Below the pieces are notes generated by a model, which was not told where the DNA came from, did no database searches, and was given only the letters and a program-made list of their open reading frames with translations. Source: a virus (taxonomy: Duplodnaviria > Caudoviricetes). From it: a stretch of 40,904 bases of DNA. Below are positions 1,722 through 21,881 of this stretch, piece after piece (the stretch's first letter is position 1; each line of letters opens with the position of its first letter). The position numbers and the translations under genes were made by a program. The stretch lies in the IMG/VR virus record IMGVR_UViG_3300044698_000273, positions 1-40,904 of that record. One strand, written 5' to 3'.

Positions 1722-1920
1722 TGCGCCTGGACAGTATGGACATACATCCGGACATTCCCGCCAAGCTCAAACGGACCTTAATTGGTCTGATTACAAACAC
1801 TTGCGCCCTTGCGCGTGGACAGTGGACAGTTCGGACATTAGTACCCGGCCAAATAAACTAACAAGGGGAATGTTTACGCGCGCACGCAATATATAACCCT
1901 CCACACTGTCCAACTATCCA
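1698..1920. promoter_or_regulatory. Putative replication origin with YGGACA iterons
   Basis: TGGACAG/TGGACAT/CGGACAT at 1728, 1737, 1749, 1816, 1823, 1832; inverted CTGTCCA 1906 and CTATCCA 1914; TCTGATTACAA repeated at 1698 and 1786; lies between helicase and primase. Confidence 0.65.
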
Positions 1921-1941
1921 GAAAGAAGAAGAGAGAGAAAG

Positions 1942-3432: not shown

Positions 3433-5348
3433 CCCCTGTCATTTTGAAATACCGCGACAGATTTCGCAAGTCTCCACAGCTCTCCATCAATTTCGGTGAG
3501 CTGGCCATTGATAATTTCGCCGGCGGAGGTGGAGCGTCCACCGGGATTGAGGCTGCCATCGGCCGTCCGGTGGATATCGCCATCAACCACGACCCTGGCG
3601 CCGTGGCCATGCACGAAGTCAATCACCCCGGCACGCGCCACTTTTGCGAATCGGTGTGGGATGTTGACCCGCGCAAGATTTGCGGGGGCCGTCCGGTTGG
3701 TATCGCCTGGTTCAGCCCGGATTGTAAGCACCACTCAAAGGCCCGCGGAGGAAAGCCGGTTGAAAAAAAGATCAGGGGCCTTGCCTGGGTGGCAGTGCGT
3801 TGGGCTGCAACGGTCAAGCCCCGGCTGATTATCCTGGAAAATGTTGAAGAGTTTGTCACATGGGGCCCGCTGGTTACAGATGTAAATGGCGACTGTTACC
3901 CCTGTAAGAAACGGAAGGGCCAGACGTTCCGGAGCTTCGTCAATGCGCTGCGCCGCCAGGGATATGAGGTGGACTGGAGAGAGTTGCGGGCCTGCGATTA
4001 CGGTGCCCCGACCATTCGTAAGCGTTTTTTCCTGATCGCCCGCTGCGACGGCCAGCCGATTGCCTGGCCGGAACCGACCCACGGAGATCCGAAAAGCGAG
4101 GCAGCAAAGAGCGGGCGCTTGCTTCCTTGGCGCACCGCTGCCGAGTGCATCGACTGGTCTCTTCCCTGCCCTTCAATTTTTGAGCGAAAACGGCCCCTGG
4201 CCGAGGCCACCCTGCGAAGGATCGCAAAGGGGGTCATGCGATATGTGGTGGAGTCGCCTGAGCCGTTCATCGTTCCTCTCACCCACCACGGCAAGAGGAA
4301 AAACCACGATATCAGCAAACCGTTTAACACCGTCACTGGAGCGCATCGCGGAGAGATGGCGCTGGTAACCCCTTTCATCACCTCACATGCCAATGCGTCG
4401 AATCAACGGAACATGCCGGCAGACGGGTCGCTGCGGACGCAGTGCGCCCAGGTGAAAGGCGGTCATTTCGCCCTTGTTACTCCCTTTATTTCCACCTATT
4501 ACGGGGCAAAATCGGCAAAAGATGCACGCGGGGCAAGGATGGACAAACCTATCGCCACCCAGACCACGGAAAACCGGCACGCTGTTGTTTCCGCTTTCCT
4601 TGCCAAGAACTACACAGGGGTGGTCGGGTCCGACCTGGACAAACCAATCGGAACAGTGACCGGCATCGACCACCACTCCCTGGTTGCCGCCAGCGTGGTG
4701 CGTCATTTCGGAGAAAGCGTCGGTTCTTCCCCGGCCGAACCGGTCGGCACCATCACCGCCGGCGGCCTCGGCAAGACCGGGATCATCGCGGCGAATCTGG
4801 TCAGAAATTTCGGGAAAAGCGCCGGCGCCGCTGCGGCAGGTCCGGCTTGCACCATCACCGGCAAAAGCAAGGACGCCCTGGTTACCTCCCACCTGGTCAA
4901 GCTGCGCGGCACCTGCAAGGATGGCCAGCCGGTAACCAGCCCCGCCCCGACCATCACCGCCAGCGGCACCCATGTCGGCGAGGTCCGGGCCTTCCTGATG
5001 AAATATTACGGCACGGATCAGGACCCCAAGCTGGTCGAACCGCTCCACACGGTGACCACGAAAGACCGCTTTGGCCTGGTTACCGTCAAGGGCGAAGAAT
5101 ACCGGATCGTGGATATAGGCATGCGGATGTTGTCTCCCCGGGAGCTGTACCGTGCCCAAGGATTCCCGGAGAACTACATCATCGACCGCGACTCGCACGG
5201 CAAGCCCATCACCAAAACCGAACAGGTTGCCAAGTGCGGCAACAGCGTCTGCCCGCCAATTGCGGAGGCACTGGTACGGGCGAACATGGCGGCGGTTGAG
5301 GTTATCGCTGTCGGAAACCCACCGGCACTGGCGGGGGTGCAGCGATGA
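3429..5348 (+). CDS. C5-cytosine DNA methyltransferase with repeat-expanded variable region
   Basis: Motif I DNFAGGGG, motif IV SPDC, motif VI ENV, motif VIII RKRFF, motifs IX/X RMLSPRELYRAQGFP and GNSV. Confidence 0.95.
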   Translation: MTPVILKYRDRFRKSPQLSINFGELAIDNFAGGGGASTGIEAAIGRPVDIAINHDPGAVAMHEVNHPGTRHFCESVWDVDPRKICGGRPVGIAWFSPDCKHHSKARGGKPVEKKIRGLAWVAVRWAATVKPRLIILENVEEFVTWGPLVTDVNGDCYPCKKRKGQTFRSFVNALRRQGYEVDWRELRACDYGAPTIRKRFFLIARCDGQPIAWPEPTHGDPKSEAAKSGRLLPWRTAAECIDWSLPCPSIFERKRPLAEATLRRIAKGVMRYVVESPEPFIVPLTHHGKRKNHDISKPFNTVTGAHRGEMALVTPFITSHANASNQRNMPADGSLRTQCAQVKGGHFALVTPFISTYYGAKSAKDARGARMDKPIATQTTENRHAVVSAFLAKNYTGVVGSDLDKPIGTVTGIDHHSLVAASVVRHFGESVGSSPAEPVGTITAGGLGKTGIIAANLVRNFGKSAGAAAAGPACTITGKSKDALVTSHLVKLRGTCKDGQPVTSPAPTITASGTHVGEVRAFLMKYYGTDQDPKLVEPLHTVTTKDRFGLVTVKGEEYRIVDIGMRMLSPRELYRAQGFPENYIIDRDSHGKPITKTEQVAKCGNSVCPPIAEALVRANMAAVEVIAVGNPPALAGVQR

Positions 5349-6433
5349 CCGTTGATATTTTAACCGGCGACTGTCGGGACATCCTGCCGACTCTGCCGGA
5401 GAAAAGCGTCCATTGCTGCGTTACCTCGCCGCCGTATTGGGGGCTGCGCGATTATGGGGTTGACGGCCAGATCGGGCTGGAGGCCTCCCCGGAGGAATTC
5501 ATTGTCGAGATGGTCAATGTGTTCCGGGAGGTGCACCGGGTGCTGCGGGACGATGGGACGCTCTGGCTGAATCTCGGAGATACCTACGCCGGATCGCGGG
5601 GACAGTCGCTTCGTGGCGGCCCCCCAAGTGCCTCGAGCACGCTGGCAGGAAACGGTCATCGCGGAGGCGGTCCGAAATTAAGCGGAATGACCACGGTAAG
5701 CCGCCGGCGGGACAATGCCGTTATCCCGCGCTCCGACTTTTTTATCCCCGGCCTAAAACCGAAAGACCTTGTCGGCATCCCCTGGCGCGTTGCCCTGGCC
5801 CTGCAGGCGGACGGCTGGTATCTGCGCTGCGATATCATCTGGCACAAGCCGAACCCCATGCCGGAAAGCGTTACCGACAGGCCGACCAAAGCCCATGAGT
5901 ACATGTTCCTGCTCTCCAAGTCCGAAAAATATTACTACGACCACGAGGCCATCAAGGAGCCGGTGTCCGGTTCTGCCCATGCCCGCAGGGGATACAAAAC
6001 CCCGGATGGTTGGGACACCTCATCGGGCAACGGCGGGCACGGGCAGTTCCATCGTGAGGGCCGGGAGAAAGGCAAGATCCCGGGAGTCGGTCCCAAAGCC
6101 GAGGCCGCAGCGGCCGGCGTGAAGAGCAATAAAAGTTTTTCCGCCGCCATTGTCGATTTGGTTCAAAGCAGAAACAAGCGCTCCGTGTGGACTGTGCCCA
6201 CGCAGCCATACTCTGCCGCCCACTTCGCCACCTTCCCGGAAAAGCTCATAGAGCCGTGCATCAAGGCCGGTTGTCCTCGGGGGGGGGTGGTGCTGGATAT
6301 CTTCGGCGGCAGCGGCACCACGGGCCGGGTGTCCACCAGGCTGAGGCGCAATTCCATCTTGATCGATTTGAACCCGGAATATGTGAAGTTGCAGCACGAG
6401 CGGACTTCCATGGTTCAGTTAAACGTTTTTTAG
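5345..6433 (+). CDS. Beta-class N4-cytosine/N6-adenine DNA methyltransferase
   Basis: Catalytic TSPPY near the N-terminus, IIWHKPNPMPES, HFATFP, SAM-binding LDIFGGSGTT near the C-terminus. Confidence 0.95.
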   Translation: MTVDILTGDCRDILPTLPEKSVHCCVTSPPYWGLRDYGVDGQIGLEASPEEFIVEMVNVFREVHRVLRDDGTLWLNLGDTYAGSRGQSLRGGPPSASSTLAGNGHRGGGPKLSGMTTVSRRRDNAVIPRSDFFIPGLKPKDLVGIPWRVALALQADGWYLRCDIIWHKPNPMPESVTDRPTKAHEYMFLLSKSEKYYYDHEAIKEPVSGSAHARRGYKTPDGWDTSSGNGGHGQFHREGREKGKIPGVGPKAEAAAAGVKSNKSFSAAIVDLVQSRNKRSVWTVPTQPYSAAHFATFPEKLIEPCIKAGCPRGGVVLDIFGGSGTTGRVSTRLRRNSILIDLNPEYVKLQHERTSMVQLNVF

Positions 6434-6446
6434 AGGGGGAAAGGAT

Positions 6447-7412
6447 ATGACAATGCCAGCGGAAAAACGCATCAAAAAAGGCTTGTGGTGGGACCGCAAC
6501 TGGCCGGTGCTGGAAGGCTGTACCCCGTGCTCGCCTGCCTGCGATAACTGCTTTGCCGCCGAGTATGCCCACCGTTTTGAGGGTTCGCTCCCGTATCTAC
6601 GCGGGCTGACCACGCCGGAAGGCAAGTGGAACGGCACCGTGATCATGCGCCAGGATCAGCTTGACCTGCCCCTCAAGACCAAGAAGCCCACCGTCTGGTT
6701 TGTGGCCGAACGGTCGGACCTGTTCCATCCCGCGGTGACGGATGAATATCTGGACCGCATCTTTGCGGTGATGGCGATGTCTCCGCAGCACACGTTCATG
6801 GTGCTGACCAAGCGGCCGGAGCGGATGCGTGATTATTTCTCTGGGTGGGTCGGCGGCAGCAGGGAGGTAAAAACGTCCAGTCCGAATATTATGGGCGAAT
6901 TGCGCTTGCCGTTTCCCAACCTCTGGATTGGCGTCACCGCCGAAAACCAGGAGCAGGCAGACAAGCGCATTCCTTTCCTGTTGCAAACGCGGGCGGAGCA
7001 CAGGTTCGTTTCCATCGAGCCGCTGCTATCCGGCATTGAAATATCACCCTATTTTTGGCCGCAGCGCCTTTGGATGCGTAACCAGGTGGCATTCGCGGAA
7101 AAAGCGCATGAATATCCGGATTGCATGGTCCCGATGCTTGACTGGGTCATCTGCGGTGGTGAATCAGGCCGCAATGCCAGGCCGGTGCATCCCGATTGGC
7201 TGCGCACTCTCCGCGATCAGTGCGCAGCCGTCGGGGTGCCATTCTTCTTCAAGCAGTGGGGGGAATGGGCACCTCGTGAGATCGCGCTAAAAGTATATGG
7301 CGAAGATTACGATCCAGAAAACAAAGTTGCGATGGCACGCATCGGCAAGAAGGCATCCGGCCGGCTGCTTGACGGAAAAGAGCACCTGGAGCTTCCAAGG
7401 TATTTCGCATGA
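6447..7412 (+). CDS. DUF5131 / phage Gp37-Gp68 family protein, copy 1
   Basis: GCTPCSPACDNCFA three-Cys motif, SDLFH, HTFMVLTKRPER, NLWIGVTAENQ, RFVSIEPLL, WVICGGESG, PFFFKQWG. Confidence 0.92.
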   Translation: MTMPAEKRIKKGLWWDRNWPVLEGCTPCSPACDNCFAAEYAHRFEGSLPYLRGLTTPEGKWNGTVIMRQDQLDLPLKTKKPTVWFVAERSDLFHPAVTDEYLDRIFAVMAMSPQHTFMVLTKRPERMRDYFSGWVGGSREVKTSSPNIMGELRLPFPNLWIGVTAENQEQADKRIPFLLQTRAEHRFVSIEPLLSGIEISPYFWPQRLWMRNQVAFAEKAHEYPDCMVPMLDWVICGGESGRNARPVHPDWLRTLRDQCAAVGVPFFFKQWGEWAPREIALKVYGEDYDPENKVAMARIGKKASGRLLDGKEHLELPRYFA

Positions 7413-8002
7413 CTCAGGAGCAAGCACCGCCGGACTCCTCCCCGGCCCCGGAGTTTCAGGACACCAAAAACGCCGCCGGTGTACTGCGCTTTTTGCAGAC
7501 CAACGGCTGGAAGGTGGAAAAAACCCAGTTTTACACCCACGTCAAGCAGGGCAAGCTGGCCCGCAACGACCAGGGGCTTTTCACCCGCCGTGCCGTGCTT
7601 CGGTATGCCAAGGACTGGGTGCCCCGCAACGACACCGGCAAGACGATCGGCGAGGAGCAGGAGGATCTGAATCGGACCAAGCTGCAGGAGGAGATCAAGC
7701 GGATCCGGGTGCAGCAGGAGCGGGACAACTTCAAGTTCGATGTCGAGCGCGGCAAGTACCTCCCCCGGGCGGAGGTGGAACAGGAGCTGGCCGGCCGGGC
7801 CGTGGCCCTGGATGCCGGATACAACCACATGGTTTACAGCCGGGTGCAGGAGTTCATTTCCGTCGTGGGCGGCGATCCATCCAAGGCCTCCCTGCTGATC
7901 GAGTGCCTGCTAACGGCCAGGGATGACTGGTTCAACCAGTATGCCGCGCCCATGGATTTCGAGGTGGAGTTGGCGGCGAATATGCCGCCGGATGAAGGTT
8001 GA
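7409..8002 (+). CDS. Putative terminase small subunit (Nu1-like wHTH plus coiled coil)
   Basis: N-terminal HTH-like segment (VEKTQFYTHVKQGKL), coiled coil, ERGKYLPRAEVEQE motif typical of small subunits partnering GpA. Confidence 0.6.
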   Translation: MTQEQAPPDSSPAPEFQDTKNAAGVLRFLQTNGWKVEKTQFYTHVKQGKLARNDQGLFTRRAVLRYAKDWVPRNDTGKTIGEEQEDLNRTKLQEEIKRIRVQQERDNFKFDVERGKYLPRAEVEQELAGRAVALDAGYNHMVYSRVQEFISVVGGDPSKASLLIECLLTARDDWFNQYAAPMDFEVELAANMPPDEG

Positions 8003-8020
8003 AAAAAAGGAGAGCTGATC

Positions 8021-8392
8021 ATGGAATGCGCCTGCGTAGAGGCCAGCGGAGATGATTACGCGGAGTCGAGCTATACCAAGATTCTCACGGCCGGAAAGCC
8101 GCATAAATGCGGAGAGTGCTACCGGAAAATCCAACCCGGCGAGCAGTACGAGATGTGCACCATGCTCTTTGAAGGCGAGTGGTCTCGGTGCAAGACCTGC
8201 CTTGATTGCCGTAGCGTAACCGCTGCCTTCTTTTGCGGGTTCACCTTTGAAACTGTATGGGAAGACCTCGGGAGCTCTTTGCGGGATTCTTATGGCCGAT
8301 TTCCAGAGGACAAGATGAATCTTCTGACACCTGCGGCCAGAGAAAAAGTGTTTTCGCTGATTGAGGGTATCTGGGCTGAGATGGATGAATAG
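8021..8392 (+). CDS. Zn-finger phage hypothetical protein
   Basis: AGGAG RBS; KPHKCGECYRKIQPGEQY and KTCLDC CxxC pairs. Confidence 0.75.
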   Translation: MECACVEASGDDYAESSYTKILTAGKPHKCGECYRKIQPGEQYEMCTMLFEGEWSRCKTCLDCRSVTAAFFCGFTFETVWEDLGSSLRDSYGRFPEDKMNLLTPAAREKVFSLIEGIWAEMDE

Positions 8393-8486
8393 CCTACCAC
8401 CACAATAAATCATCCCACCTGACAACAAGGCAAAAACTAACGGTTATCTTCGATTTTTCAACCAGATAGCAAGCGAACCAGCGAAA

Positions 8487-8930
8487 ATGAAAAAACAAAA
8501 AAACAGCCTGACTATCCCGAAACAGACCGTGGAAGAGCTGGCCCGCCGTTACGGGAACAAGCAGAACGCCCTTTCCGGCCAAGTAAGCAGCGACCTGATG
8601 TTTTACCATGCCCTGCTCGATCTGCAGGGCATGGAGGCGATGATCGACAGCCGCTTCAACGAAGCGGAGGTGCGGCTGCTCCTGGCGTCCACCGCTGGTC
8701 TGGCCGTGGAGCCCGGCGCCCTGGCAGGCATCGCCCCCAGGATCACCGCCGCCCTGGCGGAGCATATTCGTCCGGATAACCACCAAGCCATGACCTTCCT
8801 GTCCCATAAGATCATGAAGCTTTCCGTCAGCCAGGCGTTGTGGCTGTGGGACCGGCTCACGGTGTACCGGGCCAACAGTACCCGGCACCAGGATCGGGAG
8901 TATCTGCTGGCCCTGTTTGGGGTGAGATAA
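8487..8930 (+). CDS. Hypothetical protein (possible ribbon-helix-helix N-terminus)
   Basis: Clean 147-aa ORF in phage codon style; NSLTIPKQTVEELARRY only weakly RHH-like. Confidence 0.6.
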   Translation: MKKQKNSLTIPKQTVEELARRYGNKQNALSGQVSSDLMFYHALLDLQGMEAMIDSRFNEAEVRLLLASTAGLAVEPGALAGIAPRITAALAEHIRPDNHQAMTFLSHKIMKLSVSQALWLWDRLTVYRANSTRHQDREYLLALFGVR

Positions 8931-8968
8931 TTGCTGTCGCAACCAAGGAAAACTAGAGGAGAAATGCC

Positions 8969-9214
8969 ATGAAAAACAAATTGACCAACCTTAATGACCA
9001 CCTGTTTGCCCAACTGGAGAGGCTGTCGGACGAGGACACGAAAGGGGCTGACTTAACCGAAGAGATCGAACGCGCCCGTGCCGTATCGCAGATCGCCGGG
9101 CAGATCATCGGCAATGCGGCCCTGGTCCTGAAGGCCCAGACCGCCCTCAACGATGGCATGATCCGCCGTGCTCCAACCATGATGATTGGCGCCGTAAATG
9201 AAGCAACGGAATAG
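8969..9214 (+). CDS. Small phage protein preceding HNH gene
   Basis: GAGGAG RBS; MKNKLTNLNDHLFAQLERL...EIERARAV, a pattern I recognise from prophage genes upstream of HNH genes. Confidence 0.75.
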   Translation: MKNKLTNLNDHLFAQLERLSDEDTKGADLTEEIERARAVSQIAGQIIGNAALVLKAQTALNDGMIRRAPTMMIGAVNEATE

Positions 9215-10022
9215 ATACACCCCTGAGCAGTTGGAGTTCCTCCGGACCGGATACGACACCATGCCGATCCGGAAGCTGACGCCTGCGTTCAATGCGGAAT
9301 TCGGCCTGGCCAAGACCGAGATCCAAATCAAGGCGGCGTTGAACAACCACCGCATCACCTGCGGCAGGAAATACGGGGAGCGGATCCACTTCGCCCAGTT
9401 ATACACCGAGAAACAGGTGCAGTTCCTGCGGGACCATTACCAGGGTCGAAGCGTGGCGGAGCTGACCGCCCTGTTCAATCAGCGGTTCGCCGCCGCCATG
9501 ACGGCGCGGCAGATCAAGGCTTTTGTCAGTAACCGGGGGATTACCTCCGGTCGGACAGGCCAATTCGAGCCGGGGCACGCATCGTGGAACCATGGCGTCA
9601 AGGGGTACATGGGGGCCAACCGGACCAGCTTCAAAAAAGGCAGTGTGCCGCCGAACCGGAAGCCGCTCGGGACGGAGCGGATCTGCCCGAAAGACGGTTT
9701 TGTTTCGATAAAGATCGCGGAGACCAACCCGTATACCGGGTTTTCGACCAGGTACAAACACAAGCACGTCCATGTCTGGGAGCAGCTGCACGGCCCGGTG
9801 CCTAAAGGCCATGTGGTGTCCTTTATCGACGGCGACAAGCTCAATTGCGAGCCGGAAAATCTGATGCTGCTCACCAGGAAAGAGCTGTTGTGCCTGAACC
9901 TGCACAACTACAAGGACACCCCGGCCGAGCTGAAACCATCGGTGCTGGCTCTGGCAAAACTGGAGGCCAAGGCGGGCATCAGAACCAAGCCGAGTAGAGG
10001 AAGAAGAAAGGGAAATGGTTGA
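9198..10022 (+). CDS. HNH endonuclease-domain protein with duplicated N-terminal repeats
   Basis: HVHVWEQLHGPVPKGHVVSFIDGDKLNCEPENL; repeats YTPEQLEFLR / YTEKQVQFLR; FEPG / FKKG NUMOD-like motifs. Confidence 0.85.
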   Translation: MKQRNRYTPEQLEFLRTGYDTMPIRKLTPAFNAEFGLAKTEIQIKAALNNHRITCGRKYGERIHFAQLYTEKQVQFLRDHYQGRSVAELTALFNQRFAAAMTARQIKAFVSNRGITSGRTGQFEPGHASWNHGVKGYMGANRTSFKKGSVPPNRKPLGTERICPKDGFVSIKIAETNPYTGFSTRYKHKHVHVWEQLHGPVPKGHVVSFIDGDKLNCEPENLMLLTRKELLCLNLHNYKDTPAELKPSVLALAKLEAKAGIRTKPSRGRRKGNG

Positions 10023-10318
10023 TGGACTTAATCTTGCGGGTAAAGGAGTTGTATTTCTCTCAGATCAAATCCGGAGCCAAGCCGGAAGAGTACCGACTGA
10101 GAACCGCATACTGGCGCAAGAGGATTGAGGGAAAGCAGTTTGACCGGGTGATCGTGACCTGTGGGTACCCAAAGAGCACCGATGTCGAGCGCATCCTGGT
10201 GTTGCCCTGGAAAGGGTACACGGAAAAGACGATCACGCATCCGCTATTCGGGACGGATCCGGTCGAGGTGTTTGCGATTGATGTTTCAAAAACAGAGGGG
10301 AGCAATGGCCAAGAATAG
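10022..10318 (+). CDS. ASCH/PUA-like domain protein
   Basis: LRVKELYFSQIKSGAKPEEYR (GxKxxExR motif), YWRKRI, GYP. Confidence 0.85.
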   Translation: MDLILRVKELYFSQIKSGAKPEEYRLRTAYWRKRIEGKQFDRVIVTCGYPKSTDVERILVLPWKGYTEKTITHPLFGTDPVEVFAIDVSKTEGSNGQE

Positions 10319-11027
10319 CGGGATAGACTGGACAGACCATACCTGGAACCCCTGGCAAGGCTGCCGCAAGGTTTCGCCTGGCTGCGCCAACTGCTACATG
10401 TACCGGGATAAGGCACGGTATGGGCAAGACCCGACAACGGTGGTGCGCTCAAAGCCAGGCACATTCAACGCGCCGTTGCACTGGAAAGATCCCGCCCGCG
10501 TGTTTGTCTGCTCCTGGTCTGATTTTTTCATTGAGGACGCCGACGATTGGCGGGATGAGGCATGGGAGATCATGCGCCGGACGCCACACCTGACCTATAT
10601 GCTCCTGACCAAGCGGGCCGAGAACATCAAAGACCGGTTGCCGCCTGATTGGCCGCTGAAAAATGTGTGGCTTGGCGTTACTGCCGAGAACCAGCAGACC
10701 GCAAACGAGAGGCTTGCTGTACTACTGTTTGACGTGCCAGCCACAAAACGGTTTGTCTCTGTTGAGCCGATGGTGGGGCCGGTTGACCTTGGACATGCTT
10801 TATGCAAAGCGTGGAGTGATGGTGGCGCAACCATGGGCCGCTATTTGGATTGGGTAATATGCGGCGGCGAGAGCGGCCCGGAGGCGCGGGAGATGCTGCC
10901 AGAATGGGCCTTGCTCCTGAAACGCCAGTGCGCCAGCAGCAATACCCCGTTTTTCATGAAGCAGATGAGCCGAAAAGCGCCCATTCCCGACTTTTTGCAG
11001 GGCCGGGAGTTTCCGGAAAGCATTTAA
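10305..11027 (+). CDS. DUF5131 / phage Gp37-Gp68 family protein, copy 2
   Basis: GAGGGG RBS; SGIDWTDHTWNPWQGCRKVSPGCANCY, VFVCSWSDFF, LLTKR, FVSVEP, WVICGGESG, FFMKQ. Confidence 0.92.
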   Translation: MAKNSGIDWTDHTWNPWQGCRKVSPGCANCYMYRDKARYGQDPTTVVRSKPGTFNAPLHWKDPARVFVCSWSDFFIEDADDWRDEAWEIMRRTPHLTYMLLTKRAENIKDRLPPDWPLKNVWLGVTAENQQTANERLAVLLFDVPATKRFVSVEPMVGPVDLGHALCKAWSDGGATMGRYLDWVICGGESGPEAREMLPEWALLLKRQCASSNTPFFMKQMSRKAPIPDFLQGREFPESI

Positions 11028-11079
11028 CGCCAGAAATACCGGGCGGCTTTAGCCGTCCGGTTGATTGTTTGGTTGGAAC
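11022..11079 (-). repeat. attC-like recombination site 1 (canonical orientation on the minus strand)
   Basis: Minus strand reads GTTCCAAC-CAAAC-AATCAACC-GGACGGCTAAAGCCGCC-CGGTATT-TCTGGC-GTTAAAT: R'' / 5-bp spacer / L'' / palindrome / L' / 6-bp spacer / R' GTTRRRY. Confidence 0.8.
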
Positions 11080-11098
11080 AGCGAACCACGGAGGGAAT

Positions 11099-11725
11099 AT
11101 GATTGACCTGAATGATTTTTGCCAGAAAGACGGAAGCCCCGCGATTGCGACACCCTGGACTGAAGGTAGGTGGACATATGCCAGCAACGGACACCTGCTG
11201 TTGCGTGTGGAACGACGGGAAGAGGTGCCGGAAAAAATTGAAGCGCCAAAAGTGTCCGGGACTTCTTTGGGCGAGGCACTAGAGAAACGACCCGGCATGC
11301 GGGTTGTGGTGCCTGAACTACATATAAGACCGGTGCCATGCTCGAAATGCAAAGGCACTGGGAAGCAGTACACTTGCCCGGAATGCGGGGGTGAAGGTGA
11401 GGTTACGCCAAGCACCGAGTGGAACAACTACGACGAACAGACCTGCTTGACTTGCGATGGCAATGGTCAGTTGAGCAAGGACCATTGGTTGAAGTTGATG
11501 CCAAAAAGGGCAAACCCGGCTGGCGACGACTGCCACAACTGCGACGGAACCGGTAAGACCTGTGTGGACAAGCCGGTTAAGATTGGTGAGGCGCTGTTTA
11601 CCGACAGCCTGCTGGCGATGATTGCCCCCTTGCCGCACTGCGAGATTGGCGTGATCGGCAGGATGGCTGCGTCACGGTTTAGGTTTGATGGTGGGGATGG
11701 TTTGATTATGCCCCGCTCGGAATAA
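11099..11725 (+). CDS. Cassette A gene: protein with DnaJ-type CxxCxGxG zinc-finger repeats
   Basis: GGAGGG RBS; CSKCKGTG, CPECGGEG, CLTCDGNG, CHNCDGTG; flanked by YASNGHLL and FRFDGGDGLIMP. Confidence 0.8.
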   Translation: MIDLNDFCQKDGSPAIATPWTEGRWTYASNGHLLLRVERREEVPEKIEAPKVSGTSLGEALEKRPGMRVVVPELHIRPVPCSKCKGTGKQYTCPECGGEGEVTPSTEWNNYDEQTCLTCDGNGQLSKDHWLKLMPKRANPAGDDCHNCDGTGKTCVDKPVKIGEALFTDSLLAMIAPLPHCEIGVIGRMAASRFRFDGGDGLIMPRSE

Positions 11726-11732
11726 ATTGAGC

Positions 11733-11795
11733 GTTCCAACACCAGAAATAACGGGCGGCTTTAGCCGTCCGGCTGATTGATTTGTTGTACTTCAA
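11733..11795 (-). repeat. attC-like recombination site 2
   Basis: 38 of 43 inner bases identical to site 1; minus strand TTGAAGTACAAC-AAATC-AATCAGCC-...-CGTTATT-TCTGGT-GTTGGAAC. Confidence 0.8.
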
Positions 11796-11812
11796 AGCCG
11801 AGGAGGAACGAT

Positions 11813-12016
11813 ATGCCGAAAGCAGCAATCGCCATAGACGACTGGAAGTTGCCTATTTTTGAGCGCCATTTGGTAGGTGCAGGGTACGAATTTGAGCAGC
11901 ACCCCGGCTTGACGAGTGACACACTGACACTGACCGTGGTGACTCCATCCGTAGAGGAGTTGGAAGTAGTTGTCCGGGCTGCAAACACTGAAGCGCAAAA
12001 GAGGAAACTGCAATGA
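11813..12016 (+). CDS. Cassette B gene 1: small hypothetical protein
   Basis: Strong AGGAGG RBS at 11801; 67 aa; ATGA overlap with the next gene. Confidence 0.75.
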   Translation: MPKAAIAIDDWKLPIFERHLVGAGYEFEQHPGLTSDTLTLTVVTPSVEELEVVVRAANTEAQKRKLQ

Positions 12017-12333
12017 GAAAACAACCAAAGACCTGTATGACCGATGGCGAAGCTGTGGACCCGAACCACCGGGAGATTGACCAGGCCACTGGCATGCAAA
12101 AGGGGTATGTCGTTTTGTGCCCGGAGGAGCGGGCCAAGGGGTTTGTCCGGCCAGTGCGCAGAAGTTACAAGCATACCAAGTGCGGCACTGTGACGACGAT
12201 GGGCCAAACACTGGCCGAGACCTACGCCCGAGACCCGAAGTTTTACAGCGGGACGTTCTGTTGTGGCTGTGGCACCCATTTCCCTGTTGCTGGTTTTACA
12301 TGGGAGCCAGATGGCTCCGTAGTGGGTTCTTGA
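12013..12333 (+). CDS. Cassette B gene 2: Zn-binding phage hypothetical protein
   Basis: YVVLCPEERAKGFVRPVRRSYKHTKCG...AETYARDPKFYSGTFCCGC; stop codon lies inside the cassette-end core. Confidence 0.75.
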   Translation: MRKQPKTCMTDGEAVDPNHREIDQATGMQKGYVVLCPEERAKGFVRPVRRSYKHTKCGTVTTMGQTLAETYARDPKFYSGTFCCGCGTHFPVAGFTWEPDGSVVGS

Positions 12334-12352
12334 AGTACAACATTGATTAGCC
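12330..12352 (-). other. Putative attI/attG-like insertion site bounding cassette B
   Basis: TTGAAGTACAAC (12330-12341) is the exact reverse complement of 11784-11795; no full attC hairpin follows; minus strand reads GGCTAATCAAT-G/TT. Confidence 0.55.
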
Positions 12353-12395
12353 AGCCGCCCGGTTGAGCTGATTGGACAACTTTTTTGGTGATGCG

Positions 12396-12719
12396 ATGAA
12401 CCAAGTGCAAATGGCAGCGAAACTCTACGATACCCGTGACACAATGCGGCGCTTCTTTGGGGATAAATACCAGGAGAAGGTGAACGAATATCGCCCTTAC
12501 CTGGAAGCTGAAGCAAAGAACCACGGCGGCCAGGTGCTCTCGGCCATGATTGCGCTGTGCCAGAAATTAAACGCCGATGGCGGAGGGCATGAAATAGCGG
12601 TGGCAATGATGATGGCAACAGCGGTGGAGATGGTTGCTGCCCGGAATGGTCTTATGGTTGACCCAGAAAAAGAAAAAGCAGCGGAAAAGGTCATGATCGC
12701 CGCCGGTTTCAGGTCATAA
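12396..12719 (+). CDS. Hypothetical protein
   Basis: Open frame with GGTGA RBS before ATG 12396; ends just before the terminase. Confidence 0.65.
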   Translation: MNQVQMAAKLYDTRDTMRRFFGDKYQEKVNEYRPYLEAEAKNHGGQVLSAMIALCQKLNADGGGHEIAVAMMMATAVEMVAARNGLMVDPEKEKAAEKVMIAAGFRS

Positions 12720-12723
12720 ATTA

Positions 12724-14655
12724 ATGACCGCCCCCCAACCCATCACCCTCACCGGATCGCCACCCTGGCTGCCGCTCTCGCTGCACCAGCGTCCTGCGCC
12801 GGTGCGTCTCGCCTTCCGATTTTCGGCGGCGGAGCGGCGCGTCTTCCGTAAGCGGCGCAAGATCAAGGTGTCGGAGTGGTGCGAGAAACACCGGGTTGTC
12901 ACCCTGAGTTCGCTGGCCGGGCCGTGGCGGAACGATATCACCCCGTATCTGGTCGGGATCATGGACGCCTCGTTTTTTGTCTCGGTCCGCGAGATCTCCA
13001 TCTGCGCCTCGCCGCAAACCGGTAAATCTGAGGCGGTCAATAACTGTATCGCCTACGCCGCTGACCGCGATCCCGGCCCGGTGATGTACATCTATCCGGA
13101 TGAGTTGACCGCCAAGGAAAACTGTAACGACCGCATCCAGCCGATGTTCACCTCCTCGCGTCGTCTGCGCGAACTCATGACCGGCCGGCAGGATGACGCA
13201 TCAAGTCTGCGGATCAACCTTAAACACATGCCCATCTACATGGCCTGGGCGAGTTCGGTCCCGCGCCTGAGCAATAAACCGATCCGCTTCCTTGATTTCG
13301 ATGAAATCGACAAATATCCTGAGTCCAACAAACGGGAGACCGACTCCATCCGGTCGGGCGAGGCCCGCAAAACCACCTACCGATGGAACTATAAGATCTG
13401 GAAATCATCCACCCCCTCGGTGGAGTCGGGCAATATCTGGCAAGCCCTGCTCACTGGCCAGGTGATCTTTGAGTATCGGGTGCGTTGCCCGCTTTGCAAC
13501 GGCGCCCAGATCATGAACTTTGAGGGGATCCGCTTCCCGGAGGATGAGCGCGACCCGAACATCATCGAGGCCCAGGGGCTCGCCTGGTATGAATGCTCGC
13601 ATTGCCATGCGCATTGGGACGACCACAAACGGGACCAGGCGGTGCGGCTCGGCGGTTGGGTGTCCAAGGGCGATGAGTGCCTGGAACTCTTCTCCTACCT
13701 GGAGAAATACCGCCCCCGCAAGATCGGTTTCCACCTCCCCTCCTGGCTGTCGCCCTTCGTGCCGCTGGCGGAGATCGCCGCAGCCTGGCTCAAGTGCCGC
13801 AAGCCGGGCACCAAGGTTATAGACAAAAATGCCCACAAGGATTTCTATAACCGCTATAAGGCCGAGCCGTGGCTGGAGCACCACCAGGAGCGGCTGGAAG
13901 ACCGGATCCTCGCCCTCTGCGACGACCGCCCCCGCGGCCTGGTGCCATCCGGTAACCGGGTCGCCTGCCTGCTCGGCACCGCCGACACCCAGGACAACGG
14001 CTTTTACTACAAAATTCGCGGATGGGGCTACGGCCTGGAGCAGGAGAGCTGGCTGATCCGCGAGGGGTTTGTTGATAGCTTTGAGGCCCTGGAGCAGGTC
14101 TTCTGGCATGACGAATACCGCGACGCCGCCGGCAAGCAGTATGTCCTGCACTTCTGCGCCATCGACGCCATGGGACACCGCACCAAGGAAGTTTACGACT
14201 GGTGCCGGGTGCGCAAAGGCAAGATCGTGCCGCTCAAGGGCGAGGAGCGCATGGCCACCCCGTTCTCCTGGTCCACCATCGACACCTATCCGGGCACGAA
14301 AAAGGCGATCCCCGGCGGCGTCCAGCTGCTGCGGATCAACACCAACTATTTCAAGGACAACCTGGCCACCAAGCTGGAGATCTTCCCGGCCGATCCCGGC
14401 GCCTGGCATCTGCACAAAGATTACACCTCGGACTGGGCCCAGCAGATGTGCGTCGAGTTCGTCAACCCGAAGGGGTCGTGGGAGTGTCCGGAGGGCAAAG
14501 CCAACCACGCCTTTGATATCGAAGTATACGGCCTCGCACTGGCGGATTTGGTGGAGGTGAAGTTTTGGAAAAGGCCGGAGGAAGTTGAAACACAGGCACT
14601 CACCCCGCCCCGGCCCGCCGCCCCGGTGCGATCGCAATACATGACCCGCACATGA
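12724..14655 (+). CDS. Terminase large subunit, lambda GpA family
   Basis: GPWRNDITPYL, Walker A SPQTGKSE, Walker B DEIDKYP, STPS, CPLC/CSHC Zn motifs, ADTQ, HAFDIEVY. Confidence 0.95.
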   Translation: MTAPQPITLTGSPPWLPLSLHQRPAPVRLAFRFSAAERRVFRKRRKIKVSEWCEKHRVVTLSSLAGPWRNDITPYLVGIMDASFFVSVREISICASPQTGKSEAVNNCIAYAADRDPGPVMYIYPDELTAKENCNDRIQPMFTSSRRLRELMTGRQDDASSLRINLKHMPIYMAWASSVPRLSNKPIRFLDFDEIDKYPESNKRETDSIRSGEARKTTYRWNYKIWKSSTPSVESGNIWQALLTGQVIFEYRVRCPLCNGAQIMNFEGIRFPEDERDPNIIEAQGLAWYECSHCHAHWDDHKRDQAVRLGGWVSKGDECLELFSYLEKYRPRKIGFHLPSWLSPFVPLAEIAAAWLKCRKPGTKVIDKNAHKDFYNRYKAEPWLEHHQERLEDRILALCDDRPRGLVPSGNRVACLLGTADTQDNGFYYKIRGWGYGLEQESWLIREGFVDSFEALEQVFWHDEYRDAAGKQYVLHFCAIDAMGHRTKEVYDWCRVRKGKIVPLKGEERMATPFSWSTIDTYPGTKKAIPGGVQLLRINTNYFKDNLATKLEIFPADPGAWHLHKDYTSDWAQQMCVEFVNPKGSWECPEGKANHAFDIEVYGLALADLVEVKFWKRPEEVETQALTPPRPAAPVRSQYMTRT

Positions 14656-14916: not shown

Positions 14917-14952
14917 GTTGGTTGGTTCTGGCTCGGCCCAAATCGCAAAAAA

Positions 14953-15003
14953 ACACAATGTGTGTATTTATTTCTTGTAATAATACACATTGTGTGCTAT
15001 TTC
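14953..15003 (+). promoter_or_regulatory. Putative sigma70 promoter with two palindromic operators
   Basis: ACACA-A-TGTGT 14953-14963 and ACACA-T-TGTGT 14985-14995; -35 TTGTAA 14975-14980, 17-bp spacer, imperfect -10 TATTTC 14998-15003; AT-rich. Confidence 0.6.
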
Positions 15004-15053
15004 TGTTCTTGAAGGGGGGCGATAACGCCAACCGGAAAACCCAGGAGATAGAT

Positions 15054-15812
15054 ATGAAACCGATGCTTGCAAAAAACTATGAGACACAGAACGTGAAAGG
15101 CTGGTTGATGAGTGAAAAACTTGACGGGTGTCGTGCAATTTGGACAGGGTCCGAACTGCTGAGCCGTAACGGAAACAAGTTTTTTGCCCCTGTCTGGTTT
15201 ACTTCCCAGCTACCAGCAGACGTGGTGCTGGACGGCGAGCTATATATCGGCCGCGATTCATTTCAGCACGGCGTTGGAATCATCCGCAAAAAGAACCCTA
15301 TTGACGCCGAGTGGCAGACGATCCGCTATTGCGTGTTTGATGCCCCGGAACACAAAGGCGGCTTTGAAACGCGCATTGATTTCTGTGCCGAGATCCTGGC
15401 TGGGTGTGGGGTTGCCGAGGTGGTAGGGCAGACGGTCTGCAAGTGTGGTGCTCATTTACAAGAGTTTTTTTCTGACCTGGTAGCATTGGGGGCTGAAGGA
15501 GTTATGCTACGCCGACCAGGTTCTGGTTACGAGCAGAGACGATCTGATAGCCTGTTGAAGTTCAAGCCGTTTGGTTCCGACGAGGCCGAGGTGGTTGGCC
15601 ATCAGGCGGGCGAGGGGAAACACACCGGCCGCCTGGGAGCGCTGGTTTGTCGGTGGGGAAAAGTCGTTTTTAACGTGGGGACTGGCTTTTCTGATGCGCT
15701 GCGTGAAGCTCCGCCGCAGATAGGAGCTAAGGTTTCTTTTATGTTTCAGGGTTTGACTGATGGCGGCGTTCCCCGGTTTCCAGTTTTTATTGCCGAGCGA
15801 AATTACGAATGA
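15054..15812 (+). CDS. Minimal ATP-dependent DNA ligase (adenylation plus OB domain)
   Basis: AGGAG RBS; PMLA, motif I SEKLDG, LDGEL, VFDAP, AEGVMLR, RSDSLLKFK, VGTGFSD, PRFP. Confidence 0.93.
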   Translation: MKPMLAKNYETQNVKGWLMSEKLDGCRAIWTGSELLSRNGNKFFAPVWFTSQLPADVVLDGELYIGRDSFQHGVGIIRKKNPIDAEWQTIRYCVFDAPEHKGGFETRIDFCAEILAGCGVAEVVGQTVCKCGAHLQEFFSDLVALGAEGVMLRRPGSGYEQRRSDSLLKFKPFGSDEAEVVGHQAGEGKHTGRLGALVCRWGKVVFNVGTGFSDALREAPPQIGAKVSFMFQGLTDGGVPRFPVFIAERNYE

Positions 15813-16027: not shown

Positions 16028-16028
16028 A

Positions 16029-16532
16029 ATGGACCAGATAGCATTGATGCAGATAGCAACTCGATTAGAGCCTGGGCAAGCGATTGAAATCAGCGCCCAC
16101 GACATGCGCGAAGCGGCGAAGGGTGATCTGTCATCGTTGATGTTCGACCAGGTGCGGCCAGGAGATGTTGAGATTTTCGCCGAGAAGATCGATAAAAACT
16201 GGGGTGTGCGGATGCGGCGCAACCCAATGACCGGCGCTTATACGATGAGCAAACAGATACCTTTTGATGAAATTGTTGAGCCGTCTTTTTCATGGGAATG
16301 CCTTGAAGAACATTCGTTGCCTGCTGGTTTTCTTTGGGGCTATGGCGTGATTTCAGATGATCCTGCCGCGCCCCATGGTAAACGGATGAATAACATTCAG
16401 GCCCGAATAGAAAGGCGCGAAGACGGAAAATGGAATTATATTGTTTTCGGGCCGCCAGTACGAGACGGCTTGGAGCCCTCCAAGGGCGAAGCGATGACCG
16501 CGTGTGAGTTCTGGATGCGGCGCAACAGGTAA
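16029..16532 (+). CDS. Hypothetical protein (moron cargo)
   Basis: GGAGG RBS; 167-aa ORF followed by a terminator. Confidence 0.65.
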   Translation: MDQIALMQIATRLEPGQAIEISAHDMREAAKGDLSSLMFDQVRPGDVEIFAEKIDKNWGVRMRRNPMTGAYTMSKQIPFDEIVEPSFSWECLEEHSLPAGFLWGYGVISDDPAAPHGKRMNNIQARIERREDGKWNYIVFGPPVRDGLEPSKGEAMTACEFWMRRNR

Positions 16533-16561
16533 TAGTCAGACGTAAAATTCTCAGTCTCCCC

Positions 16562-16586
16562 TCCCGGCTTTCGCCGGGATTTTTTT
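16562..16586 (+). terminator. Rho-independent terminator
   Basis: TCCCGGC-TTTC-GCCGGGA followed by T7. Confidence 0.85.
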
Positions 16587-16600
16587 GTCCTCTCCTAAAA

Positions 16601-16640
16601 TTTAAGCGCACCAAGCGCATGGAGTGTCTTTAAGCGCACC
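16601..16640 (+). promoter_or_regulatory. Direct-repeat protein binding sites upstream of the head operon
   Basis: TTTAAGCGCACC at 16601 and 16629; AAGCGCA at 16604, 16613, 16632. Confidence 0.55.
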
Positions 16641-16683
16641 CCGTACATTTTCTTTTCCCTCGCCATGGTGGACAATCCCCCCC

Positions 16684-16905
16684 ATGGCATACAACCAGAC
16701 CGACCTCGACAACATCCAGGCAGCGATCACCGCCCTGGTCACCGGCAAGCGGCGCACCAGCGCCACCATCGCGGGGAACCGCATCGACTATGCCCCGGTG
16801 GACCTCCCCCAGCTCCGCGCCATGCGGGCCGAGGTCCAGGCCGAACTGAATCTTGCCGCCGGCCGCACCCGCTTCGTGCTGGTTTCGACCAGCAAGGGGG
16901 TCTAG
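16684..16905 (+). CDS. Head-tail joining protein (gpW-like)
   Basis: MAYNQTDLDNIQAAITALVTG...RIDY...LPQL; directly upstream of the portal. Confidence 0.8.
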   Translation: MAYNQTDLDNIQAAITALVTGKRRTSATIAGNRIDYAPVDLPQLRAMRAEVQAELNLAAGRTRFVLVSTSKGV

Positions 16906-16906
16906 C

Positions 16907-18415
16907 GTGACCGCGCCGATCCTCTTTGACCATCGCGGCCAGCCGGTTTCTTCCAGCTTCATGGTCGGCGACTACGAAGGGGCCTCCAACTCCCGCCGCC
17001 TCTCCGCTTGGGGCCTCGGCGTGTCCGGGCCCACCGCCTCGCTCTCTCACTCGCTCACCTCCCTGCGTTCCCGCTGCCGTAAACTGTCGATGAACGAGCC
17101 CCAGATCGACGGCGGACTCGACACCCTGGCCGCCAACCTGGTCGGCACCGGCATCACTCCGCGCTGGCAACTGGAAGACAGCGGCCTCAAGGCCGAGATC
17201 CAGGCCCTCTGGGCTGATTGGGTCAAGGAAGCGGACGCCGACGGAGTCACCGACTTTTACGGCCTCCAGTCGCTGGTTGCCCGCTCGATGATCGAGTCCG
17301 GCGAGGTTTTGTCCCGCGATATCTATCGCCGCCAGGAAGAAGATCTGGTGGTCCCGGTTCAGATCCAGGTGCTGGAGGCGGACCACCTGGACGAAACCTA
17401 CAACACCATCAACCAGGAAACCGGCAACGAGATCCGCTTCGGTATCGAGTTCGACGGCTCCGGGCGGCGAGCCGCCTACCACCTCTACAAAGAGCACCCG
17501 GCTGAAAATTTCCTCCTCGCCAACCCCACCATTCGGCACCGGATCGGGGCCGATGAAGTCAGGCACGTTTACCGCCCGCTGCGCCCCGGCCAGAAACGCG
17601 GCCGCCCCTGGCTTGCCGCCGCCATCTTGGTAATGCACGAGATGGCCAAGTACGACGACGCCGAACTGGTCCGCAAGACCGCTGCCGCCATGTTCGGCGG
17701 CTTTATCACCGAGACTACCCCTGGGCCGAACCCTCCTGGGCAAGGTGCTTTTGGCCAGCCGAGCATGACAGACGGCAAGGGCCGCGAGATCATCCCCCTG
17801 GAGCCGGGCACCTTCCCCCTGCTTCCTCCGGGCATGGATGTCAAATTTTCCGCCCCTGCCGATGTGGGCGGCAACTACGAGGCCTTCACCAAGCGCCAGG
17901 AGCACCGGGTCGCCAAGGGCTTCGGCGGCCTCACCTACGAGAAATTCACCGGCGATCTCGCCGATGCTTCCTATTCCTCCATACGAGGCGGCAATCTCGA
18001 AGCGCAGCGGGTTTGGAAGATGGTGATCTACAACGTCCTGGTGCATCAGTTCTGCCAGCCCTCCACCGCCGTGTTTCTCCGGCAGGCGGTGTTGACCGGA
18101 AAAATCAAGATCAAGGATTTTCTCGCCAATCACCGCAAATACCTCCGAATCAAATGGTGTATCGACGGGTGGCCCTGGGTGGATCCGGTTAAGGACCAGG
18201 TCGCCGAGCGGATGGCTATTCGCGGCGGCCTCAAATCCCGCGCTGAATCGGTGGCCGAACGCGGCCGTGACGTGGAAGAAGTGGATGAGGAGATCAGGGC
18301 CGACAACGAACGGGTTGACCGCCTCGCCCTGGTGCTGGATACCGATCCGCGCAGCACCGCCAACAACGGCAGTGCCGTGAGCCGCAAAACAAACGATGGA
18401 GAGTCCGATGCCTGA
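16907..18415 (+). CDS. Portal protein, lambda family
   Basis: GTG start; LRSRCRKL, VGTGI, DFYGLQ, ESGE, GIEFD, RPGQKRGRPW, GDLADASYSSIR, WPWVDPVKD. Confidence 0.95.
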   Translation: MTAPILFDHRGQPVSSSFMVGDYEGASNSRRLSAWGLGVSGPTASLSHSLTSLRSRCRKLSMNEPQIDGGLDTLAANLVGTGITPRWQLEDSGLKAEIQALWADWVKEADADGVTDFYGLQSLVARSMIESGEVLSRDIYRRQEEDLVVPVQIQVLEADHLDETYNTINQETGNEIRFGIEFDGSGRRAAYHLYKEHPAENFLLANPTIRHRIGADEVRHVYRPLRPGQKRGRPWLAAAILVMHEMAKYDDAELVRKTAAAMFGGFITETTPGPNPPGQGAFGQPSMTDGKGREIIPLEPGTFPLLPPGMDVKFSAPADVGGNYEAFTKRQEHRVAKGFGGLTYEKFTGDLADASYSSIRGGNLEAQRVWKMVIYNVLVHQFCQPSTAVFLRQAVLTGKIKIKDFLANHRKYLRIKWCIDGWPWVDPVKDQVAERMAIRGGLKSRAESVAERGRDVEEVDEEIRADNERVDRLALVLDTDPRSTANNGSAVSRKTNDGESDA

Positions 18416-19736: not shown

Positions 19737-19748
19737 GCCGCGGGAAAA

Positions 19749-19783
19749 ACCTTCCGCCTTCAGCCTTCAACCTTCAGCCTTAA
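19749..19783. repeat. Heptamer tandem array (RCCTTCA)x5
   Basis: ACCTTCC GCCTTCA GCCTTCA ACCTTCA GCCTTAA. Confidence 0.85.
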
Positions 19784-19801
19784 AAAAACGAGGATACGAA
19801 C

Positions 19802-20761: not shown

Positions 20762-20771
20762 AGCAGTGAAT

Positions 20772-20835
20772 AGACCGAAGGCCGAAGACTGAGGAAAAAA
20801 ACCTTCAGCCTTCAGCCTTCCACCTTCAGCCTTCA
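20772..20835. repeat. Inverted heptamer tandem arrays
   Basis: AGACCGA AGGCCGA AGACTGA, then an A-tract, then ACCTTCA GCCTTCA GCCTTCC ACCTTCA GCCTTCA. Confidence 0.85.
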
Positions 20836-21878: not shown

Positions 21879-21881
21879 GCC

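What the first reader, a model, noticed from the sequence alone, without database searches (positions are those of the whole stretch)
11022..12341. Integron-type gene cassette array (attC sites, no IntI) embedded in a phage early operon
Seen: two 57-bp sites (11022-11078 and 11734-11790) share 38 of 43 inner bases. Each folds on the + strand; site 1 is AAT-ACCGGGCGGC-TTTA-GCCGTCCGGT-[TG]-ATT with bulged T/G, bracketed by AAC...GTT. Each intervening unit has exactly complementary ends that differ between units: GTTGGAAC (11072) / GTTCCAAC (11733), 8 bp, and GTTGTACTTCAA (11784) / TTGAAGTACAAC (12330), 12 bp. Established: cassette-specific R'/R'' complementarity, 5/6-bp spacers and extrahelical G/T are hallmarks of integron attC cassettes recombined by IntI as single-strand hairpins. 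Inference: cassette A (11028-11739, 712 bp) and cassette B (11740-12340, 601 bp) are excisable modules, so the phage has a cassette-shuffling locus, probably driven in trans by a host integron integrase. Caveat: the inner cores GTTGGAA and GTTGTAC keep GTT but deviate from GTTRRRY.
Basis: partly seen in the sequence, partly recalled or inferred. Interest (0 to 1): 0.92.

Follow-up and report, generated by a model that had tools for sequence, protein, structure and literature searches.

The report
Backwards integron cassette array in phage
This phage carries a row of small genes bounded by integron-type DNA hairpins but facing backwards compared with bacterial integrons; the same genes turn up beside different neighbours in other phages, and the array is likely the leftover of a phage-owned integron whose integrase gene, still present at this spot in related phages, was lost here.

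Summary
Observation confirmed. Both 57-bp sites are attC-type. A model built from 24 bacterial integron sites hits exactly them, top strand on minus, so the genes lie on the attC bottom strand, inverted relative to bacterial cassettes. The cassettes move as units: cassette B recurs in another phage with the same 12-bp ends and homology stopping at AA|C. Cassette A recurs in another study's contigs with a different downstream neighbour, plus one weak head-to-tail junction. The array is larger than reported: DUF5131 and ORF 12396-12719 are relic cassettes. No integrase lies in the window (record 51% complete). Related phages carry attI and a true IntI between the array and terL. In viral contigs picked by IntI alone, 26 of 28 upstream arrays are inverted, against 7 of 82 bacterial sites. 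Best reading: a decayed, phage-native inverted integron. Recombination is untested. Phage attC clusters are published (Qi 2023), but the two published cases I checked are canonical; my searches found no paper on the inverted layout. This scan noted the layout before on other DNA (18 notes). New variant of a known kind; interest 0.65.

The parts
10305..11027 (+). DUF5131 (Gp37/Gp68-like) gene; relic cassette that has lost its own attC. Its R' is 11020-11028.
   Evidence: Pfam PF07505. 86% identical over 760 nt to a cassette in L002/L205, where it is led by the same attC family with a 9-bp complementary R'' and followed by a different attC.
11022..11078 (-). attC site 1. Top strand is minus; the recombinogenic bottom strand is plus. 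R' AAC 11026-11028, R'' GTT 11072-11074.
   Evidence: Model R1 from bacterial attC: 33.8 bits, E 7e-6, minus strand. G bulge on the arm opposite the AAC, as in Bouvier 2009.
11028..11739 (+). Cassette A (712 bp): own attC, leader with ribosome-binding-like site, one gene
   Evidence: 8-bp end complement. In run X4 the 3' end is followed by other sequence right after 11740, and one record joins the cassette's own end to 11026. Homologues are bounded inverted cassettes in L239, L243 and L245.
11099..11725 (+). Gene A, 208 aa: DnaJ-type zinc-finger insert in a body that is possibly a sliding-clamp-like domain
   Evidence: PF00684 E 1.6e-7, phrog_37414. Model pLDDT 83. Best fold matches are clamps and DnaJ, but none reaches E 0.001.
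11734..11790 (-). attC site 2 (top strand minus). R' AAC 11738-11740, R'' GTT 11784-11786.
   Evidence: R1 35.8 bits, E 2.5e-6. 48 of 49 identical to sites in L002 and L012; 44 of 49 identical to a site in a canonical integron of a deltaproteobacterial genome (L231).
11740..12340 (+). Cassette B (601 bp): own attC and two genes
   Evidence: 12-bp end complement. Same unit in L111 at 84%, identical ends, homology ends at 12341. In L116 both ends have changed together. Run X3 breaks after 12342.
11813..12016 (+). Gene B1, 67 aa, unknown function
   Evidence: ORF with ribosome-binding-like site, conserved in L111-L114 and L119; no family hit.
12013..12333 (+). Gene B2, 106 aa, Cys/His-rich common phage protein of unknown function
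   Evidence: 171 relatives among 173 matched stretches in viral contigs. Nearest Atlas clusters are 83-90% viral.
12335..12385 (-). Site 3: R' of cassette B (AAC 12339-12341) followed by a likely degenerate attC with shortened loop and no R'' GTT
   Evidence: Shares a 9-mer and a 12-mer, in register, with a longer attC family in L209/L203/L205. Not detected by R1 or by a profile of that family, and the 12-mer also occurs once elsewhere in the window.
12396..12719 (+). ORF C, 107 aa: likely relic cassette gene with an unrelated C-terminal tail
   Evidence: Residues 1-80 match proteins that are bounded inverted cassettes in L217, L218, L221 and L222, 4 of 6 loci.
12720..12726 (+). Junction to terL, where relatives carry attI and intI
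   Evidence: IntI ends directly before terL in L015/L210 (97% identical to window 16028-22385), L111, L224, L225/L227, L226 and L211. Run X1 spans 11757-12908 without it. No attI motif above chance.
12724..14655 (+). Terminase large subunit, GpA type; right-hand landmark of the array
   Evidence: PF05876 and PF20454.

Best explanation
The locus is an array of attC-bounded gene cassettes whose genes lie on the attC bottom strand, and it is likely the remnant of a phage-owned integron (cassette array, attI, intI, then terL) that has lost attI and intI. Shown: attC anatomy and strand; cassette-specific end pairing; the same cassettes beside other neighbours with breaks at AA|C; complete integrons at the same position in relatives; no integrase in the window. 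Inferred: an IntI would fold and cut the plus strand at AA|C of R', excise attC plus gene as a circle and insert it at attI beside terL. The genes are likely inverted so that they, and intI, are read with the phage early operon without a Pc promoter. The cargo likely comes from the ordinary phage gene pool. Here the array would now move only through an IntI supplied in trans, by the host (likely Desulfobacterota) or by a co-infecting relative.
For: R1, built from 24 bacterial sites lacking the window's 17-nt core, hits only the two sites at E<1, both on minus. Its strand call agrees with an experimentally tested TJE1 site. Cognate ends pair 4 of 4 beyond the triplet in 26 of 36 phage cassettes, against 34 of 1260 non-cognate pairs. 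Shared cassettes break downstream at or within a few bases of AA|C in all 5 close nucleotide-level pairs, and in L243/L245 and L212/L382. attI cores are conserved with different first cassettes. The relative's IntI passes TIGR02249 at 399 bits, cut-off 265; the phage IntIs carry the IntI insertion and catalytic motifs. Among 79 viral IntI loci, 52 had attC hits; 26 of 28 upstream arrays are inverted (57 inverted, 5 canonical, 8 unclear of 70 sites), against 72 canonical, 7 inverted, 3 unclear of 82 bacterial sites. A terL homologue follows intI in 13 of those 28 loci, within 50 nt in 8.
Against: No recombination was tested. Both window sites have two L-stem mismatches, and the predicted share of the recombinogenic fold in the array is 0.008 and 0.13, against 0.3-0.9 for four bacterial sites. 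The record is 51% complete, so an intI elsewhere is not excluded. The closest terL relative (L016, 86%) has neither array nor IntI, and only 3 of 61 terL loci had attC hits, so gain of an integrase-less array is also possible. The upstream attC body does not always travel with its gene: it is swapped in 4 comparisons. A first, ribosome-site-based orientation test gave only 13 inverted, 9 canonical, 6 tied loci; it miscalled loci with annotated genes. The viral loci include near-duplicates. The head-to-tail junction is one record of depth 2 with 12 letters on its short side, below the tool's 31-letter bar.
Confidence: 0.75

Rival explanations
1. The lineage never had its own integrase here: the array was assembled and is shuffled only by the host's chromosomal IntI acting in trans.
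For: The same 49-bp family sits in canonical chromosomal integrons, mostly of Desulfobacterota. 18 of 28 genome assemblies with this site have an IntI over cut-off, two of these hits lying in phage contigs. Qi 2023 showed phage attC sites work with IntI1. No attI remnant is in the window.
Against: Close relatives on both sides carry intI at exactly this slot: L015 on the head side, and L212/L227 on the early side, the latter two contigs joined only by inference. Inverted cassettes are rare in host arrays (7 of 82 sites). L226 shows a parallel loss of attI and the start of intI.
Confidence: 0.13
2. The hairpins act as shared boundary repeats or terminators, and modules are exchanged by homologous recombination or slippage rather than by IntI.
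For: Sites 1 and 2 are 45 of 50 identical. Both score as terminator-like, though 10 such sites were found against 5.6 expected. attC bodies are swapped near R'' in 4 comparisons.
Against: Neighbouring sites in most arrays are unrelated in sequence yet break at AA|C. Cassette ends co-vary (L116 against the window). attI and IntI are present in relatives.
Confidence: 0.07
3. The genes are in normal orientation and the integrase prefers the other strand, so each cassette is gene plus downstream site, cut at R''.
For: Homology starts at or just before the R'' GTT in 4 comparisons. Top-strand recombination at R'' is known for some sites (Nivina 2016; Bouvier 2009).
Against: The downstream site never travelled with the gene in any comparison, while the upstream site did in L004/L205, L243/L245, window/X4 and window/X3. 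attI faces the array in the standard geometry.
Confidence: 0.05

Closest known systems
CALINs and integrons in phage genomes (Qi et al. 2023, PMC9892861; parts 1-4 of 7 of the text and supplement passages read)
   Same: attC clusters without IntI in phages; methyltransferase cargo; sites shown to be IntI1 substrates.
   Different: TJE1 (3 of 3 sites) and Shewanella phage M16-3 (4 of 5 sites) are canonical by my model. The parts of the paper I read do not describe inverted genes or a phage integrase beside terL. Here the genes are inverted and the relatives' intI is part of the phage operon.
Sedentary chromosomal integrons (IntI, attI, attC; anatomy from Bouvier 2009 PMC2727003 and Nivina 2016 PMC5027507, passages read)
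   Same: R'', L'', L', R' boxes, 5/6-nt spacers, G and T extrahelical bases, cassette-specific end pairing; the same 49-bp family occurs in Desulfobacterota integrons.
   Different: Genes face intI and start just after R''. No promoter-like site was found at 8000-13000. This window lacks attI and intI.
Reverse integrons of Treponema type (search listing only; layout recalled)
   Same: intI points the same way as the cassette genes.
   Different: There intI precedes the array and genes are canonical relative to attC. Here intI follows the array and genes are inverted. 23 viral IntI loci showed the reverse layout, 19 of them canonical.

Membership tests
attC site | AAC and GTT R boxes with 5- and 6-nt spacers and L boxes | tested here: met
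   Each L stem has two mismatches in the canonical register.
attC site | Extrahelical G (and T) on the R''-L'' arm of the bottom strand | tested here: met
   Model alignment places both on the plus strand; criteria.
attC site | Hit by an attC covariance model | tested here: met
   Own model R1 from 24 bacterial sites: 33.8 and 35.8 bits, next hit E=1. It recovers three TJE1 sites. IntegronFinder's own model was not available; Rfam gave no hit here.
attC site | Recombined by IntI as a folded bottom strand | not testable with these tools
   Only indirect: breakpoints at AA|C.
attC site (site 3) | Full R'-L'-L''-R'' anatomy | tested here: not met
   No R'' GTT; missed by R1 and by the family profile. 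Filed as a likely relic.
Gene cassette | Cassette-specific R'/R'' complementarity | tested here: met
   8 and 12 bp; 26 of 36 phage cassettes against a 2.7% null.
Gene cassette | Found in different arrays with borders at the crossover point | tested here: met
   B in L111 and X3; A in X4; DUF5131 in L205.
Gene cassette | Gene on the top strand, ending at R'' of its attC | tested here: not met
   Genes lie on the bottom strand and start after R''.
Gene cassette | Free circular form | tested here: inconclusive
   One 151-nt record, depth 2, joins A's end to its start; circle or tandem copy.
CALIN | Two or more attC sites in a cluster with no IntI nearby | tested here: met
   The record is 51% complete.
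Complete integron | intI gene next to the array | tested here: not met
   Absent in the window; met in relatives.
Complete integron | attI site | tested here: not met
   Motifs of the relatives' attI regions are not above chance in the window.
Reverse (Treponema-type) integron | intI upstream of and co-oriented with a canonical array | tested here: not met
   In relatives intI is downstream of the genes and attI has the standard geometry.

The most novel reading that the evidence does not exclude
Temperate phages of Desulfobacterota and other hosts run their own integrons at the early/late boundary, with phage-specific IntI clades. They build inverted cassettes out of ordinary phage genes and exchange attC bodies at R'', so they hold a mirror-image cassette pool apart from the host's and show cassettes being made.
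Probability: 0.35. Interest if true: 0.85.

Novelty: new variant of a known kind. Interest (0 to 1): 0.65.

Why it matters
Integrons are known as bacterial devices, and phage attC clusters were reported as rare captures (21 of 10,705 genomes, Qi 2023). Here the layout is fitted to the phage: the genes and the integrase run with the phage operon, and the cargo is phage-type (6 DNA methyltransferases and 2 PAPS-reductase-like genes among 16 family hits in 33 cassette genes). That would give phages a site-specific way to swap accessory genes, plausibly against restriction. It also bears on the open question of how cassettes arise (recalled as unresolved): gene B2 had an attC hit nearby in only 4 of 80 homologue loci, so the same gene can be compared inside and outside a cassette. 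The relatives supply IntI, attI and attC for a direct assay.

Tried and rejected
Rfam scan: nothing relevant. My strict grammar scan missed both sites, an early sign of the L-stem mismatches, and a looser one gave many false hits; both were replaced by the covariance model. My early note placing the 12-bp end at 12329 was an off-by-one slip, as was the first circle fold for B (redone). Cassette A protein: no relative in viral contigs; 18 proteins, itself included, in the protein search. 5 of the 14 stretches with the 17-nt core lacked the AAC/GTT frame and were set aside as chance. Site 1 had no match in GenBank phages. The sequence following cassette A in X4 was not found in viral contigs, so it is not shown to be an attC. 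Virus Rctr41k has an IntI-like gene but no convincing attC. GC skew did not tell replication direction, so the lagging-strand idea (Loot 2017) is untested. No RNA holder listed. The ribosome-site orientation test was replaced by a composition test with controls; L370 was dropped as a cut-off hit. The tree joins the two phage IntI clades only weakly (83/77), so one origin is not shown. The wider fold search did not run, so the clamp-like fold of gene A stays a lead. Top-strand inversion of bacterial cassettes was rejected as the source: it would invert attC together with its gene.

Full report
Setting. The window is a whole virus record of 40,904 bp, linear and rated 51% complete. It is a lambda-like tailed phage: primase and methyltransferase genes, then small genes, then GpA terminase, portal, capsid and tail genes, all on plus. 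The finding lies just before terL.

Observation. All stated coordinates hold. The two sites are 49 bp from AAC to GTT and share 38 of 43 inner bases. The unit ends pair over 8 and 12 bp; the bases beyond the fixed triplet would pair by chance at about 9e-4 and 4e-6. Free folding is only modestly better than shuffles (z -2.45 and -1.44 on plus). Contigs of run X1, which may be the source sample, cover the region in overlapping pieces, one spanning 11757-12908.

Are they attC sites? The same 49-50-bp family occurs in 9 of 14 viral stretches with the core motif and in most of 35 genome stretches, largely Desulfobacterota. Several of these sit next to an IntI. I built a covariance model from 24 bacterial sites that lack the window's 17-nt core (96.9% of cells paired). 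In the window it hits 11022-11078 and 11734-11790 at 33.8 and 35.8 bits, and the next hit has E=1. As a control it finds three sites in phage TJE1, with the strand matching the bottom-strand primer that Qi et al. used. The window's sites are imperfect: each has two mismatches in the L stem. The predicted share of the recombinogenic fold is 0.008 and 0.13 in the array and about 0.3 and 0.25 in circular form, against 0.3-0.9 for four bacterial sites.

Orientation. Both hits have the top strand on minus, while the genes are on plus. Each site therefore leads its gene, which starts about 27 nt after R''. By longest ORF, 24 of 36 phage cassettes were inverted, 1 canonical and 11 unclear; 55 of 63 bacterial cassettes were canonical, 2 inverted and 6 unclear. 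Some of those phage loci were picked through the window's cargo, so I repeated the test on 79 viral loci picked by IntI alone, 52 of which had attC hits (L370 dropped). A ribosome-site test was noisy: 13 inverted, 9 canonical, 6 tied among 28 upstream arrays, and wrong on loci with annotated genes. A composition test gave 26 inverted and 2 canonical. Its controls were TJE1 3 of 3 canonical, M16-3 4 of 5 canonical and bacteria 72 of 82 canonical. The loci include near-duplicates and five contigs already seen.

Mobility. Cassette B occurs in L111 at 84% with identical 12-bp ends, and homology stops at 12341, where a different attC begins. In L116 both ends have changed and still pair. The DUF5131 gene is a full cassette in L205, led by the same site family with a 9-bp complement to the window's 11020-11028; in the window its own site is gone. 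ORF C homologues are bounded inverted cassettes in 4 of 6 loci, and site 3 looks like a shortened member of a second family, though no model detects it. In run X4, from another study, cassette A (at most one difference per piece) is followed by other sequence directly after 11740. A second record joins the 12 bases of window 11726-11737 in front of 11026, the head-to-tail junction expected of a circle or tandem copy. That is a single record of depth 2, below the tool's bar for a bridge, so it is a hint only. Across phage cassettes, cognate ends pair 4 of 4 in 26 of 36, against 2.7% of non-cognate pairs.

The integrase. The window has no tyrosine recombinase and no attI motif above chance. Three of 14 viral records checked carry an IntI over the TIGR02249 cut-off and two more carry its C-terminal part. 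The layout is early genes, inverted array, attI, intI on the same strand, then terL in L111, L224 and L211; in L226 attI and the start of intI are lost. L015, 97% identical to window 16028-22385, has the end of intI abutting terL, but its contig stops there. A prophage in a Desulfurivibrionaceae assembly is 76-87% identical to much of window 129-10284 and has a different array at the same place; another contig of that assembly starts with attI, intI and terL, a join inferred from a 2-base overlap and the end complement. A terL homologue follows intI in 13 of 28 upstream-array loci. The phage IntIs have the IntI insertion and catalytic motifs and form two well-supported clades, joined weakly. 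Against a universal feature: L016 (terL 86%) has neither array nor IntI, and only 3 of 61 terL loci had attC hits, many with short flanks. X1 also holds a contig matching the L205-type DUF5131 cassette with that array's neighbours, so an IntI-bearing relative may share the sample (inference).

Mechanism. Established (Bouvier 2009 and Nivina 2016, passages): IntI cuts the folded bottom strand in the AAC of R'. Shown here: the anatomy, the strand and the breakpoints that this predicts. Inferred: excision and insertion by a phage IntI; inversion so that cargo and intI are read with the phage operon; later loss of attI-intI in this lineage. Cargo is phage-type: 16 of 33 inverted cassette genes hit PHROGs, 6 as DNA methyltransferases. 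Gene B2 had an attC hit nearby in 4 of 80 homologue loci and gene A in 6 of 80, so most copies are ordinary phage genes. Unexplained: in four comparisons a gene keeps both of its ends but has a different attC body (window/L203, L209/L316, L212/L382, L205/L206), while in four others the leading site travels with it (L004/L205, L243/L245, window/X4, window/X3). Occasional top-strand crossover at R'' would explain this, but it is untested.

Literature. Qi et al. 2023 (PMC9892861; parts 1-4 of 7 and supplement passages) report 3 complete integrons, 1 In0 and 17 CALINs in 10,705 phage genomes, and 5 of 6 tested sites worked with IntI1. The two cases I checked are canonical; the others were not checked. 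Searches found no paper on inverted phage cassettes or a phage integrase beside terL. That library holds only openly licensed PubMed Central papers and bioRxiv. Passages only were read of PMC5371416, PMC11023631, PMC8618304, PMC8876359, PMC13366799 and 10.64898/2026.09.14.751636; none of those passages describes the layout. Reverse integrons were seen as a search listing only. This scan has noted the inverted layout on other DNA (18 notes). I recorded the inversion, before reading them, and they are not counted as evidence.

Verdict. Real and well supported as an inverted attC cassette array. In this genome it is an integrase-less remnant; its interest comes from the complete phage integrons in its relatives. 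New variant of a known kind, interest 0.65.

Noticed in passing
window 26611-26703: Perfect 32-nt inverted repeat with a 29-nt spacer before the tape-measure gene; looks like a REP-type element (label recalled).
   Followed up: no
window 19745-19788 and 20797-20840: 44-nt direct repeat, 93% alike, in front of two head genes.
   Followed up: no
window 14922-15812: ATP-dependent DNA ligase gene between terL and portal, in a stretch not shared with the 97%-identical relative L015.
   Followed up: no
window 6447-7412 and 10305-11027: Two DUF5131 paralogues; only the second looks like a former cassette.
   Followed up: partly
L226 6750-6790: A cassette's R' is joined into the middle of intI, so attI and the start of intI are lost: a parallel case of decay.
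   Followed up: partly
L328, L379 and 21 other viral IntI loci: A second phage layout: long attC sites downstream of a co-oriented intI with mostly canonical genes (19 of 23 loci); none had a GpA-type terL match nearby.
   Followed up: partly
L002 1105-1899 (minus): The PAPS-reductase-like reading frame can start inside the loop of its own attC.
   Followed up: no
window 11080-11093 and L013 about 4225-4240: Cassette A and an unrelated methyltransferase cassette share a 14-nt leader right after R''.
   Followed up: no
L111 2690-2700; L004 and L321: The first attC of an array often follows a resident-looking phage gene whose stop codon lies in R'.
   Followed up: partly
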